Below, in pieces: positions 3,380 through 53,342 of a stretch of DNA of 64,000 nt. Below the pieces are notes generated by a model, which saw only the letters and a list, made by a program, of their open reading frames with translations, ran no database searches and was not told where the DNA came from. Within the stretch, counting starts at the first letter, position 1; the number at the start of each line of letters is the position of its first letter. The position numbers and the translations under genes are program-made. This DNA comes from Octopus vulgaris (taxonomy: Eukaryota): contig OX597819.1 of NCBI GenBank assembly GCA_951406725.2, positions 80,724,001-80,788,000 on the forward strand. Direction: 5' to 3'.

Positions 3380-3415
3380 CTTTTACGTTTCGAGCCTATG
3401 CTCTTCTACAGAAAG
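3380..3415 (-). ncRNA. Hammerhead-ribozyme-like motif (variant core CUGUAGA) in a ~185-bp repeat embedded in (TA)n (3290-3475)
   Basis: Minus strand reads CUUU-CUGUAGA-A-GAGC(AUAG)GCUC-GAA-ACGU-A-AAAG. Same layout as, and downstream similarity to, the canonical motif at 16882; A6 is replaced by U. Confidence 0.5.
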
Positions 3416-5102
3416 GGACACAGAAAAAACAAGGAGAGAAAAAATGTGTGTAGTGGCTAACGATCTATCATGGCATGTATATATATATATATATATATAT
3501 ATACCACGGCTCCCACATAGTCTCCATCTACGAAATTCACTCACAAAACATTGGTCGGTCTGGGGTTAAAGAAGAAGACACGTACCCAAAGTACTGCGAA
3601 GTGGGGCTAACCCAAAATCACGTGGCTGCAAGCGAGCTTTTTAACCACACAGCCACCAGTTGCATCTATATAACATTCCGCAGTATTGAATATCATAACA
3701 GCGTGATATGCTACGTTTATTGTATGGCTTTAGTATGGCATCGCATAACATTCAATTACGTAGAATGATATCGCAATTAGATCGCATGTCATTGCATGGT
3801 TGTATTATGATATCGCGTAGTATTACATGATGGTGAGTGATTCTGAGGCATCTGCGAGTGAATATAAGAATGCAAACACGAAGATGTAGAAAATCAAATA
3901 CACAAACCAAGAGACCAAAACAAAGAAGAGAATCTGCGAACCAAGTAATTGTGTTTTCAGTTGAACAGTTATTGAGGAGGAAACACTTTGATTGTGAGAA
4001 ATGGACGTTTTATGGTCTCCTTTTCCTTATGCTCTTTTTTTTTCATCTTTCTCTCATGCTTTCTCTCTCTCTCTCTCTCTTTCTTTCTCTCACTCTGTCT
4101 CTCTCACCTTTTCTCTCCCACACACAGTCTCTTTCTTTCTCTTCATATTCGTTCAGTATCTTTCTTCTTGTTCTCTTTGTTCTGTGTGTGTCTATATATA
4201 TATATATATATATATATATATATATATATATTAGATAAATAGATAGAAAGATAGATAGATAGATATACTTACAAAAATGCATATATATATACATATATAA
4301 GTATATAGCAGGTGTGTCTATATATGTATATATATATATATATATATATATATATATATATATAGATAGATAGATAGATAGATAGATAGATAGATAGATA
4401 GATAGATAGATAGATAGATAGATAGATAGGTAGATAGATAGATGCATATATACAGACATGTATACATATATATATACATATGCATATATGTTATATATAT
4501 ATATATATATGTGTGTGTGTGTGTGTGTGTGTGTGCATGAATGTATGTATATATGTATTTATGTATTATGTATGTATGTATGTATGCATGTATGTATGCA
4601 TATATAGTGGATTCCCCAGTTGATCTACACATATAAGAACCCAACAGCCTAGCTGTTAGTCTAGCCATAGACATTACTGTATTCAGTAATAAAGGCTTGT
4701 ATAACACCAACCACACTCTTTAGATCCTTTAACACAAATTTTTGTTCACGTTGTCAGATTACACAGTTACTGGGATTAACAAATCTTAGATATGTTGGCG
4801 CGATTATCACCCATAGAATTACATGACTGTTAAGCGTGAAGTCGAAGAGAATTAAGATAATTTTCTATATTTAAACCATATTGTCTCCATATGTAGGAGA
4901 GAATTTCCAAACTCCAGTCAGAAGTAAGACATGCCTCACCATCTAACTATTTTTGAAAATCATAAAATTATGAAACCGGTTAAGTTTATACGAATGCTTC
5001 GCTTTTCTATTTAGTTTGCAAAATACTGTGCCAGTGCGTGAGTTTATTATTATTATTGGCGTAATGACCTTCCCAAGACAAAACAAGATTAATGTAAATA
5101 AA

Positions 5103-7691
5103 CACTAAGCAACCCAGCTAAGTACACCAGCAACACTGATCAACAAAAAAATTTCTTATATCAGAGATGATTTTCAGTAGACTAAAATGATTTTTAGGAG
5201 CTGATTTCAAAAGTGTCTGCGTTATATTTATCATATTTGTTTCGTGTGTTGTTTTTGTGTGTTGTTCGTTCATATGGGTATGCAAATGAGATCAATTGTG
5301 TGTGTATACTTGTGTGTATGTGTATGTGTGCGTGTGTATAAGTCTTTGCGCATGTCTGTATTATATCATATTATATTATATCATATTATATCATATATTT
5401 GGCACACACAGGCACGTATACACATACGCACGCACACGCGGGATTTCTACATCTTAATCATAACGATGATACGGAGAGAACAAAGAGACCGTGATACCGA
5501 ACACTATTTTTCTAGTCTTAACATAACTGGGTATAAATGGATTTTCTACAAAGAATAAATACAAGATTATTTATTCTAACATGTTTTCAGCACGTAAACC
5601 AGTTCAACATGAAGGCACAAATTCGTTTATTTCCCCCCAGAATGATGGACTAGCTTCATAATGAAATTGACAGTGATGAAGAAGTAATTGACAGAAGCGC
5701 TGAACTTTCTATAGATCTTGAATGCGTACTTTAGGAAAATCTGAAGAGCCAATGTCATTTATTGAAGAACGATCTTACTAGAGATTTGTCACTTTCTTTC
5801 GAGGAGACAGAAATTCTTGCCTCCAAGAATGAAGGAAAGTCATTTATTTGACAGAAATGTGCAGGTTCTCCTTTTGATGGTGATTCACTCGACCAAATCT
5901 ATACCAGTGAGTCGCTGTCAAAAGCGAAATTTTAATTTGGTAACATGGCCCCACTCTGCTTTCGCAATGATATCAACGAACTCTTCGCAAACTATTCTCA
6001 GATTCAAGGAGCCTTTGACTAGACACCCCTTTGTCGATTCATTACATAGAGAGGTGAAAATATTTCCACTACATAATGGAATTTATAGCCATGCATTCCC
6101 ATTGCCGACTCTGTTCGCTTGAAGGAAGCATACTATAACATGGGTATACTGTTTGATACTGTGAACATCAATGAAACCCTAGAAGTCGTTTCATTCTTTA
6201 GGCATGCAAAATGAACATGCATGTATGATATTTACAAAATACTGCTGTTTCTTATGTTTGTGGGACTCTCGTGCAACCACAGTAAACATAACTGGACACA
6301 GAGGTTAACATATGCTCCACAATGAAATCTTTTGTGAACGTAATAAGATACGTTATACCAAGAGAATGTTCAGTATCATCGTAAAACAAAATTTCTAAAT
6401 GAGAGTACGGCAAACTAAAAAGAGGGATTTTTTCAGTTCCACAATTCAGGATGATTTTAAAGATATTGAATTTAAGCAATCCCATTAATACACCGGAATT
6501 AGAAGTTCAACAGTTTTTAATGGTTACGTAAGAGCTTTCAGCAGAGAACAAAGTTCCATGCACATAGAGGTGAAACTGGGAAACCTTAATAATATGAGTA
6601 CAGTAATCCCTCGCTAATTCGCGGTTCAACTATCGCGGATTCACGACTTCGCGGATTTAAAATATATATATATATATATATATATGAACACCTGAAATTT
6701 TTCATTAAATCCAAAAAAAAGAAGAAGAAACGCAGCAAGTTGTCGACCAAACTGGCTTGATTTTCGGACGGCTGGCCAAGCTCTGTAACCTGGCTAAAGA
6801 ATTGAAAGAGGGGTCACAGGAATGGGACGACTATGGATCGTTCTGTGCAATTTTGCAACAAGGTCGACGAAGTCATGAATCCCTACAAGATGCTCCTTGA
6901 AAGGAAAAAAGAAGCAGCATCAGCAAACTTCCTATCACAATGTTTTTGCAGGCTCGCAAAAAAAAGCCAGTTCCTGCTGCTACTACTACGGCTGCACCTT
7001 CGGAAGAAGTGGAAGAGGTGTCCCGGGAAAGGTCACCGCCGTCAGCTTCATCATCATCATTTCTACTGCGCCGCAAATTCATCACCATCATCATTCAAAT
7101 TACACTTTAACTTCTTTCGTGTTGAGTACAGTAAAATGTTATTGCTTAACAGTTGTCCTTGTTATTAATAGACTACTGTAATGGGTGGGTTGTTAACAGT
7201 ACAGGGAGGGTTTTAATAGTCCAAATACACATTAAATAAATATTGTAAATATGGTGTCCCTACTTCGCGGAAATTCAGTTATCGCGGCCGGTCTCGGAAT
7301 CAATCTACCGCGATAAACGAGGGATCACTGTATAAGCAAAAGGACTGTCAAGCACCGTTAAAACTACTTTTATATATTCAGCTTCATTTCTTTTCGAAAA
7401 ATCTTGGCGCAGTAAAAGACACAAGGGAAAATGAATGGAATCTCGATACCAGAGATTTAGAAACAAGGCTTGATAGTTCATTATTGCTATATGTTATACT
7501 GGCACAACTCAGACAGATTTTACTAGAAAAAATTATAATCGCAATACTTAATTTGCATAATGTATATATTTAATTATATATACGTTTCTAACTGAATCTA
7601 TGAGATGAAAATGAATTTAATGTTAAATATACATTAATTAATCAAGTTTATGCTGTGTGTTTGACTTCAAACAATAAATTTTGTATAAAAT
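5103..7691 (+). mobile_element. Decayed Chapaev3-like (CMC) DNA transposon, interrupted by a Tigger-like element
   Basis: CACT(A/G) terminus. Frameshifted transposase remnants (NDLTRDL..EILASRMKE, FVDS..LHNG, KYCCFL) resemble the better-preserved copy at 36824-38997. Boundaries approximate. Confidence 0.55.
6601..7330 (+). mobile_element. Internally deleted Tigger/pogo (Tc1/mariner) transposon
   Basis: TIRs CAGTAATCCCTCG / CGAGGGATCACTG with a TA target duplication on both sides; internal remnant of a pogo-type transposase C-terminus (MDRSVQFCNKVDEVMNPYKMLLERKK). Confidence 0.85.
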
Positions 7692-52065: not shown

Positions 52066-52077
52066 TATATATATATA

Positions 52078-52478
52078 AGTGCAGGAGTGGCTGTGTGGTA
52101 TATAGCTTGCTTACCAACCACATGGTTCTGGGTTCAGTCCCACTGCGTGGCACCTTGGGCAAGTGTCTTCTACTATAGCCTTGGGCCGACCAAAGCCTTG
52201 AGTAGATCTGGTAGATGGAAACTGAAAGAAGCCTGTCGTATATATATATATATATATATATATATACGTATGTATACGTTTGTATGTCTGTATTTGTCCC
52301 ACCACCATCGCTTGACAACCGATGTTGGTGTCTTTACATGCCCGTAACTTAGTGGTTCAGCAAAAGAGACCAATAGATTGAGTACTAGGCTTACAAAGAG
52401 TAAGTCCTGGGGTCAGTTTGTTTGACTAAAGGCAGTGCTTCAGCATGGCCACAGTCAAATAACAAACAAATAAAAGAA
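52078..52478 (+). mobile_element. Family A SINE (intronic)
   Basis: Homologous to 29535-29950. Other intronic copies at 55215-55610(+), 56860-57247(+), 57915-58057(-), 58512-58785(+), 60158-60552(-) and 61761-62510(+, interrupted). Confidence 0.85.
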
Positions 52479-53342
52479 TATATATATATAGACTCCATGG
52501 CATCTTATTGGAATGTAATACATTATTCTTATATTTAGAAAATTATTAATCAGTCACATATTTGGTTATCTTCATAAAAACCTTGTCTATTTGGCGTTGT
52601 GTGTCATTTGCTGACAGCTGGTGCCCATAGCTGATCTAATTCTTTATCTCTTTTAGTACTTTTACATCTGTAAAATTATTGGTTCTGCTGTAACCACATG
52701 ATAACTATTAACTACATCCGTCAATCTATATTGGGTTTTTCCTCCCTGTGCCTTGTACTTGCGTTTATGTATTTGTTTTGTAAGATTCCTGATATGAAAT
52801 CACGTGTTGAAACAGATATTGCTATACTTGCACTCTATACATGGTTTTCACTTCAGCTTTATTATTCTTATTTTACTGTCCTTTGCTGGAAACCTTTCAT
52901 CACACATTCTGTGTCCTCCTCAGTGACATTCCATCTCACATGTCTCTTCCTGTTCTGTTAAATCCATTCTGTCTTTCTATGGTGTGTATCCTTATCTGCG
53001 TTTGAGTGTGTGTGTGTGTGTGTGTGGAGTATTGATTTTAAAATAGGTCCGGGTATAGTAGTATTATGTTGTGAACAAGTTCACTTGGCAATCACATATT
53101 TTTGTGTTCAGTCTAATTGCTGTACATTGGGTAAAATATCTTCTAATGCCCTTGGTCAACCAATGTAAGTGAAACATCTGTATATTTAAGAAGCTTGCTT
53201 TCCTACCATTTCATTCAGGTTCAGTCCCATTGTGCAGCACTTTAGACTAGTGTTTTTTTGTATTGATCCACGCCAACCAATGCCTTATGAGTGGATTTAG
53301 TAGACAGAAACTGAAAAGATACTAGTAGACAGAAACTAAAAA

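What the first reader, a model, noticed from the sequence alone, without database searches (positions are those of the whole stretch)
3380..52928. Multiple short repeat families in one 64-kb window each carry a minimal dimer-type hammerhead
Seen: near-canonical motifs at 16882(+), 18110(+) and 27902(-), and variant or decayed ones at 3380(-), 16261(+), 16521(+), 18781(-), 28921(-) and 52885(-). Stems differ in sequence but the layout is shared: CUGANGA, often one extra purine, stem II, GAA, a self-complementary stem III (ACGU, ACAUGCAUGU, ACAUCGAUGU), then UH. An extra nucleotide after A9 is a known tolerated natural variant. Inference: this genome may hold a very large, diverse load of ribozyme-bearing PLE/retrozyme derivatives that standard annotation misses.
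Basis: partly seen in the sequence, partly recalled or inferred. Interest (0 to 1): 0.75.

Follow-up and report, generated by a model that had tools for sequence, protein, structure and literature searches.

The report
Penelope-tail hammerheads, some with altered cores
The nine motifs are mostly decayed copies from seven abundant repeat families carrying the small hammerhead (predicted self-cutting RNA) shape already known from Penelope-type jumping genes; two families sit directly behind such genes in this genome, and one very common family keeps U at a core position that is normally A, which would likely slow cutting but is untested.

Summary
Real, but largely known. All nine sites are copies of seven dispersed repeat families with a minimal type I hammerhead layout; my descriptor finds 0 hits in 40 window shuffles. 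Only 1 of 9 window copies is strictly intact. Families A and F lie 3' of Penelope-like (PLE) coding sequence; C and D are closed ~350- and ~330-nt non-coding units (retrozyme-like). D and F use the known U3-A8 core.

A 1.4-Mb genome sample gives 18 strict motifs with a paired 3-8 core (~13 per Mb, ~36,000 genome-wide) and ~158,000 recognisable family copies. That density is of the order reported for other animals; Rfam reports none in the window. Cervera & de la Peña (2014) describe this system.

The residual novelty is family B2 (3411-, ~50,000 copies): U6 in 33 of 33 copies, while position 7 takes all four bases and position 17 is never G. A sister subfamily carries C4. Cleavage is untested. 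This scan noted these variants before, on other DNA of the same genome.

The parts
18110..18155 (+). Family A minimal type I hammerhead, the only strictly intact window copy (5-bp stem I, CUGAAGA, extra A, 6-bp stem II, GAA, ACGU, U17; predicted cut between 18150 and 18151)
   Evidence: canonical core in 28 of 30 family loci
18025..18202 (+). 3' end (pseudo-LTR part) of a PLE, family A
   Evidence: extent; L323, L324 and the sampled L282 carry RT/endonuclease-like coding sequence directly upstream
17771..17850 (+). tRNA-like segment of family A (A-box-like at 17774, B-box-like at 17819), separated from the hammerhead part by (AAT)n and other inserted sequence
   Evidence: matches in 24 of 30 family-A loci, window included; box names recalled; ARAGORN at default settings does not call it
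16882..16918 (+). Family B hammerhead; canonical core, stem III palindrome broken by CpG decay (ACAU)
   Evidence: canonical core in 24 of 25 family loci
16505..16660 (+). Upstream partial repeat of family B (period about 367 nt) with an 11-nt deletion removing the core; dead
   Evidence: same partial-tandem junction in L319-L321
27902..27947 (-). Family C hammerhead: 6-bp stem I, CUGAUGA, C/A opposition at the base of a 4-bp stem II, 10-nt palindromic stem III, C17
   Evidence: homodimer MFE is the dimeric hammerhead fold
27673..28010 (-). Family C element, most of a closed ~352-nt non-coding unit (retrozyme-like)
3380..3415 (-). Family B2 hammerhead-like motif with all stems intact and U at core position 6
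3290..3474 (-). Family B2 element between (TA)n runs
16261..16304 (+). Family D motif; family core U3-A8, this copy has a 3-nt core deletion; 10-nt palindromic stem III; family is a closed ~325-342-nt unit
18779..18820 (-). Family F motif; U3-A8 core (U3 at 18813), extra G, AAUU stem III; stems I and II decayed in this copy; family lies 3' of a GIY-YIG ORF end
28919..28965 (-). Family E motif: canonical core, extra G, 4-6-bp stem II, AGAUUU stem III, C17, bulged stem I; weakest structural case
   Evidence: canonical core in 17 of 25 family loci
52880..52928 (-). Older, decayed family E copy (about 75% identity)

Best explanation
The nine sites are short, mostly decayed copies from seven repeat families that carry the minimal type I hammerhead layout; two families lie directly behind Penelope-like protein genes, two are closed non-coding units, and all are likely Penelope-mobilised. 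In the parent elements the short palindromic stem III would pair between two hammerheads, so cutting after position 17 would need a tandem transcript and probably the element's protein (known for other PLEs, inferred here). The scattered genomic copies are truncated insertions, often in microsatellites and often with an inverted partner; lacking a tandem partner and decaying neutrally, most would not cut. Shown: layout, families, excess over shuffles, PLE linkage for A and F, closed units for C and D. Inferred: PLE dependence of B, B2, C, D, E; dimer cleavage; any activity.
For: Window: 0 hits in 40 shuffles versus 1-3 real. Genome sample of 140 stretches, 1,399,900 nt: strict C3-G8 8, U3-A8 6, G3-C8 4, versus unpaired controls C3-A8 1 and U3-G8 0; 10 shuffles give 0, except one U3-A8 hit. 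With the core left free, 27 of 63 stem-defined hits lie within one change of a paired core, versus 0 of 57 in four shuffles. Compensatory change in family C at pair 2.1-1.1: 11 A-U, 11 G-C, 1 G-U, 2 A-C of 25 (probably one event between subfamilies). Family A follows coding sequence that matches a Pfam-confirmed RT+GIY-YIG protein of this genome (tblastn E 1e-20 and 9e-19), and so does a sampled copy (L282). Family F follows a GIY-YIG ORF end in L214 and L217 (query confirmed by Pfam E 1e-7). ORF-bearing PLEs carry the same layout 0.4-1.0 kb behind the stop in 8 of 15 loci. Unconstrained homodimer folding gives the dimeric hammerhead for C and D. Literature: PMC4209133, PMC11167929.
Against: No coding parent was found for C, D, E or B2; for the B lineage only a 20-residue endonuclease-like C-terminus in 1 of 5 loci (L329; motif recalled, no Pfam hit). 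Pfam did not recognise the family A coding fragments. Homodimer MFE reproduced the hammerhead dimer in only 2 of 6 correctly framed window segments. RNA-seq reads of family A from a related organism show no pile-up of ends at the predicted cut (unstranded fragmented libraries, weak test). Family E's stems I and III are irregular.
Confidence: 0.85

Rival explanations
1. The motifs are vestigial or serve as a protein-binding fold: the hammerhead shape is inherited in PLE ends, but self-cleavage is dispensable, which is why families with U6 or C4 reached the highest copy numbers. This can be true alongside the main explanation.
For: In the 1.4-Mb sample B2 (U6) has 25 copies and B3 19 (13 with C4), against 1 for canonical B. 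Catalytic mutants of the Anolis PLE hammerhead did not affect insertion in vitro, and no RNA ends were seen at its cut (PMC11167929 passages). A6C and U4C lower activity in vitro (PMC3088659).
Against: In B2 the positions that vary are those a hammerhead leaves free (N7: A 16, G 6, U 6, C 5; position 17: A 24, U 8, C 1, never G), while positions 3, 4, 5, 8 and 9 are kept in 31-32 of 33. The 3-8 pair occurs as C-G, U-A and G-C but almost never unpaired.
Confidence: 0.35
2. Several families are active non-LTR retrozymes: ~330-370-nt units that are cut out of tandem transcripts, circularised and re-inserted from circular RNA.
For: C and D are closed loops: sequence downstream of the hammerhead recurs upstream in 13 of 25 and 9 of 25 copies, with periods ~352 and ~325-342 nt. 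A U3-A8 family outside the window forms a 99% identical ~362-nt tandem (L070). Unit sizes match published retrozymes (PMC7229834).
Against: Published retrozymes carry canonical type I hammerheads with loop 1-loop 2 contacts in arrays; here the motifs are minimal and mostly solo or inverted. A template jump on a linear RNA gives the same permutation. A and F are PLE ends, not closed units.
Confidence: 0.3
3. The motifs are chance matches in an AT-rich, repeat-rich genome, amplified by repeat copy number.
For: The motif is short; family E is irregular; 36 of 63 free-core hits in real DNA are far from any core, several in TA-rich sequence.
Against: Shuffles give ~0; many unrelated families converge on the same layout; compensatory changes occur.
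Confidence: 0.03

Closest known systems
Minimal hammerheads (min-HHR) in pseudo-LTRs of metazoan Penelope-like elements (Cervera & de la Peña 2014, PMC4209133; parts 1-2 of 4 and supplement passages read)
   Same: Type I layout, short stem I, extra nucleotide after A9, G10.1-C11.1, palindromic stem III, U3-A8 variant, many families per genome, mostly solo copies from truncated PLEs, opposite-strand pairs 100-700 nt apart.
   Different: Here the two most frequent B-lineage families in the sample carry U6 or C4, and a G3-C8 family occurs; some stems III are 10 nt; no octopus entry in the supplement file searched (one supplement file could not be searched).
Hydra-1_Obim hammerhead (Craig et al. 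2021, PMC8557442, File S2 row seen)
   Same: A cephalopod PLE with a minimal hammerhead near its 3' end and (TA)n insertion preference.
   Different: A different sequence from all seven window families by inspection; not aligned by tool.
Poseidon PAc of Anolis (PMC11167929, passages read)
   Same: PLE with hammerhead in the pseudo-LTR; no RNA ends seen at the cut.
   Different: PAc cleavage was tested (protein-assisted, C3G/G8C partly rescues); nothing is tested here.
Non-LTR retrozymes (Cervera & de la Peña 2020, PMC7229834, passages and section 15; bioRxiv 10.64898/2026.07.22.740005, parts 1-2 of 5)
   Same: Non-coding 150-450-nt units with a type I hammerhead, proposed PLE-derived; families C and D fit the size and closed-unit form.
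   Different: Those have canonical hammerheads in tandem arrays and shown circular RNAs; C and D have minimal motifs, are mostly dispersed, and no circle is shown.
Natural core variants (Perreault et al. 2011, PMC3088659, section 8 and passages)
   Same: U3-A8 covariation, U4C, A6C and palindromic stem III dimers are described.
   Different: A6U is not named in the passages read; mutant cores in repeats were rejected there as cryptic mutants.

Membership tests
PLE minimal hammerhead (min-HHR) | Core C3 U4 G5 A6 N7 G8 A9 ... G12 A13 A14 A15.1, U16.1 H17, or paired 3-8 variant | tested here: met
   Family level: A 28 of 30, B 24 of 25, C 23 of 25, E 17 of 25 canonical; F 19 of 20 and D 13 of 25 U3-A8 (5 more D copies have U3-A8 with C4) (loci selected by likeness to the window copy)
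PLE minimal hammerhead (min-HHR) | Same core, family B2 (3411-) | tested here: not met
   U6 in 33 of 33 copies; 25 of 25 in the unbiased sample. B2 works like, but is not, a consensus min-HHR
PLE minimal hammerhead (min-HHR) | Stems I and II, palindromic stem III | tested here: met
   met for A, B, B2, D, F at family level; C has a C/A opposition below stem II; E needs a bulge and G-U pairs
PLE minimal hammerhead (min-HHR) | Located in the pseudo-LTR of a PLE | tested here: inconclusive
   Met for A and F; weak for B (L329); not found for B2, C, D, E
PLE minimal hammerhead (min-HHR) | Self-cleavage as a dimer | not testable with these tools
   Only folding predictions and an uninformative read-end check
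EN+ Penelope-like element | Single ORF with RT and C-terminal GIY-YIG upstream of the hammerhead | tested here: met
   Family A: decayed RT and endonuclease-like frames in L323, L324, L282; family F: GIY-YIG end only. No intact ORF was obtained for either
EN+ Penelope-like element | Truncated copies with inverted partners, microsatellite targets | tested here: met
   More than one core-matching piece, often inverted, in 14 of 30 A, 5 of 25 B, 3 of 25 C, 7 of 25 D, 3 of 25 E, 6 of 20 F loci; (TA)n flanks
Non-LTR retrozyme | Non-coding unit of 150-450 nt repeated head to tail | tested here: inconclusive
   Closed units for C and D with partial tandems; no full array seen for them; not met for A, E, F
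Non-LTR retrozyme | Canonical type I hammerhead with loop 1-loop 2 contacts | not tested
   Motifs match the minimal type; tertiary contacts were not examined
Non-LTR retrozyme | Circular RNA in vivo | not testable with these tools
   Family C hammerhead region had no reads at 88% likeness in the related organism's runs
Rfam hammerhead families | Score at or above the gathering threshold | tested here: not met
   (only a tRNA); no hammerhead model at E<=10 in 16150-17000

The most novel reading that the evidence does not exclude
The ~50,000-copy B2 lineage is a naturally selected, still-cutting hammerhead with U at position 6, a core letter thought to need A; its subfamilies vary only at the positions a working hammerhead leaves free. 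With the C4, U3-A8 and G3-C8 families, this genome would be a natural mutational series showing which core changes PLE protein-assisted dimer cleavage tolerates.
Probability: 0.25. Interest if true: 0.55.

Novelty: new member of a known kind. Interest (0 to 1): 0.3.

Why it matters
The main observation repeats a known pattern in a genome where it has hardly been catalogued, and confirms that Rfam-based annotation misses these motifs. What PLE hammerheads do is still open: one in vitro study found cleavage dispensable for insertion. Sister lineages that share stem II but differ at the core (canonical B, C4 in B3, U6 in B2), with the altered ones far more numerous in the sample, give a ready natural test of whether cleavage matters for PLE spread and how tolerant the core is in the dimer or with the PLE protein.

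Tried and rejected
Rfam at E<=10 over the whole window: no hammerhead among the 150 of 218 rows shown, nearly all microsatellite noise. The repeat finder was swamped by simple repeats. ARAGORN at a very low threshold was noise. No RNA holder was listed for family A in the run index. Reads of three RNA-seq runs of a related organism cover family A on both strands equally and show no end pile-up; consistent with background transcription, and not a test of cleavage. The family C lay gave no coverage of the hammerhead region in the related organism: no verdict. B2 next to GIY-YIG loci (L236, L238, L312) and D next to one (L207) were rejected as links: opposite strand or separated by microsatellite and unrelated sequence. 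RT-like sequence ~1 kb from a family E copy (L164) was not contiguous. I first read family A as a tRNA SINE and dropped that after finding coding sequence upstream. The family F query and the F segment were mis-centred, so those F results (0 covering hits; dimer fold) are discarded. Other CUGANGA sites of the window gave no further motif with loop II up to 80 nt. Lünse et al. (RNA Biol, PMC5785218) is not held; only its title was seen, and it may describe such core variants.
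Full report
Setting. The window lies at G000:C6:80724001-80788000 in a 2.8-Gb genome of 227 contigs, 37% GC and rich in microsatellites and dispersed repeats. The repeat content looks octopus-like; that label is recalled and echoed in earlier scan notes, and no call of mine established it.

Observation. I wrote a descriptor for a minimal type I hammerhead: stem I of at least 4 pairs, CUGANGA, 0-1 extra base, stem II of at least 4 pairs, GAA, a self-complementary stem III of 4-14 nt from A to U, then H. 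In the window it gives 1 strict hit (18115+), 3 with one mismatch in each of stems II and III, and 4 with one core change. Forty dinucleotide block shuffles give 0 (15 shuffles, mean 0.13, for the last setting). Rfam reports no hammerhead. The other five sites needed family context.

Families. Searches of the own genome and alignments sort the nine sites into seven families. A (18115+): canonical. B (16887+, 16521+): canonical family; the first copy has a CpG-decayed stem III, the second has lost 11 core bases; they form a partial tandem. B2 (3411-): U6. C (27941-): canonical core, 10-nt palindrome, a family-wide C/A opposition below stem II, and an A-U/G-C exchange in stem I (11 versus 11 of 25). 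D (16267+): U3-A8 family, 3-nt deletion here. F (18813-): U3-A8 family, decayed stems here. E (28960-, 52923-): canonical core, irregular stems I and III. These loci were chosen by likeness to the window copy, so their tallies are biased towards it.

Genome-wide load. I took 140 stretches of 10 kb at round coordinates on contigs C1-C30 (1,399,900 nt; regular spacing, not a random draw). Strict hits: C3-G8 8, U3-A8 6, G3-C8 4, C4 10, U6 9; unpaired controls C3-A8 1, U3-G8 0, A3-U8 0. Ten shuffles gave 0 for these settings, apart from one U3-A8 and two A3-U8 hits. This scales to about 16,000 (Poisson 6,900-31,500), 12,000, 8,000, 20,000 and 18,000 copies; clustering makes the intervals too narrow. 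With the core left free, 27 of 63 hits lie within one change of a paired core, against 0 of 57 in four shuffles. By homology, 79 copies of ten query families cover the motif, about 158,000 genome-wide (A 18, B2 25, B3 19, B 1, C 1, E 1, D 0, two further families 6 and 8; the F query was mis-centred). Published counts: about 2,000 plus 1,300 U3-A8 in Schistosoma, 4,000 in coelacanth, 9,000 in Xenopus; over 6,000 in 16 families in Acropora and 126,247 in axolotl (axolotl genome 28.2 Gb). Descriptors differ, so the comparison is rough.

What carries them. The genome has many GIY-YIG loci, including repeated 781-aa frames with RT plus GIY-YIG by Pfam (RT just under the curated cut-off). Eight of 15 such loci have a U3-A8 hammerhead 0.4-1.0 kb behind the stop, and 3 of 12 further loci have one with C4 or U4. 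Family A continues upstream through a tRNA-like segment into decayed coding sequence matching that protein (L323, L324), and a sampled copy does the same (L282). Family F follows a GIY-YIG end across a microsatellite-rich spacer in L214 and L217. C and D are closed units of ~352 and ~325-342 nt without an ORF. For the B lineage 1 of 5 extended loci ends in a short endonuclease-like C-terminus (motif recalled). No parent was found for B2 or E.

Mechanism. From the literature: minimal PLE hammerheads do not cut as monomers and cut weakly as dimers; the Anolis one is protein-assisted and dispensable for insertion in vitro. Inferred here: parent tandem transcripts would pair two palindromic stems III and cut after position 17, while the dispersed copies are truncated, solo or inverted, and decaying. 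Unconstrained homodimer folding gives the expected dimer for C and D, but not for A, B, B2 or E. RNA-seq of a related organism gave no ends at the family A cut, a weak test.

The residual novelty. B, B2 and B3 share stem II and form three groups on a tree of 91 copies. In B2, position 6 is U in 33 of 33 (one truncated row dropped); positions 3, 4, 5, 8 and 9 are kept in 31-32 of 33; position 7 is A 16, G 6, U 6, C 5; position 17 is A 24, U 8, C 1, never G. That is the freedom pattern of a hammerhead, which suggests but does not prove selection on the fold with U6; subfamily relatedness was not corrected for. In B3, 13 of 19 sampled copies have C4, and most U4 copies form a sister group. A6C and U4C are known low-activity natural variants. 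I found no report of A6U in a hammerhead (listings only) and no catalogue for cephalopods beyond one Hydra-clade entry and 235 Rfam hits in giant squid. The most relevant paper (Lünse et al., PMC5785218) and one supplement file of PMC4209133 could not be read and may contain such variants.

Earlier notes. The scan has reported the U6, C4 and G3-C8 families and the tRNA-headed PLE on other DNA of this genome; none was listed near this window. I saw the variants before those look-ups. The lead that family A is a coding PLE end came from them, and I tested it.

Verdict. Observation confirmed; interpretation partly supported; new members of a known kind; interest 0.3.

Noticed in passing
window 17771-17850 and L002-L030, L323-L325: Family A places a tRNA-like segment with A-box- and B-box-like motifs between the PLE stop codon and the hammerhead; many short copies begin near it, so they look like SINEs.
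   Followed up: partly
L030, L015, L048, L074; reads: Some family A copies lack 3 nt at the predicted cut site; slippage in a TG micro-repeat or one subfamily would explain it as well as a cleavage scar.
   Followed up: no
L070:8466-9671: A U3-A8 family absent from the window forms a ~362-nt, 99% identical head-to-tail tandem plus inverted copies: a young retrozyme-like candidate.
   Followed up: partly
L089, L262, L285: A family with a G3-C8 core (7 of 8 sampled copies intact), about 16,000 copies by homology.
   Followed up: partly
L306 (G000:C16:20836000-20840800) and many sites: A PLE family with many 781-aa open frames scoring identically, so probably recently active; close relatives carry a U3-A8 hammerhead.
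   Followed up: partly
L307, L310, L316: An ORF-bearing PLE family has C4 in two loci and U4 in one; because C4 creates a CpG, decay can restore the canonical core.
   Followed up: no
window 30041-30113 (-): tRNA-Lys(TTT) found by Rfam and ARAGORN; gene or repeat-borne copy not resolved.
   Followed up: no
window 29586-29956, 33631-33820, 52129-52486, 55255-55614, 56909-57252 and others: Abundant dispersed SINE-like repeats, recalled as typical of octopus genomes.
   Followed up: no
window 62056-62406: A long inverted repeat (Rfam miRNA-like hairpin hit at 62156-62292) with short matches to B2 flanks; not examined for a further hammerhead family beyond the descriptor scan.
   Followed up: no
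loose ends: The related organism has family-C-like sequences whose stem III palindrome appears shorter (6 nt), suggesting the palindrome is kept while its length changes.
   Followed up: no
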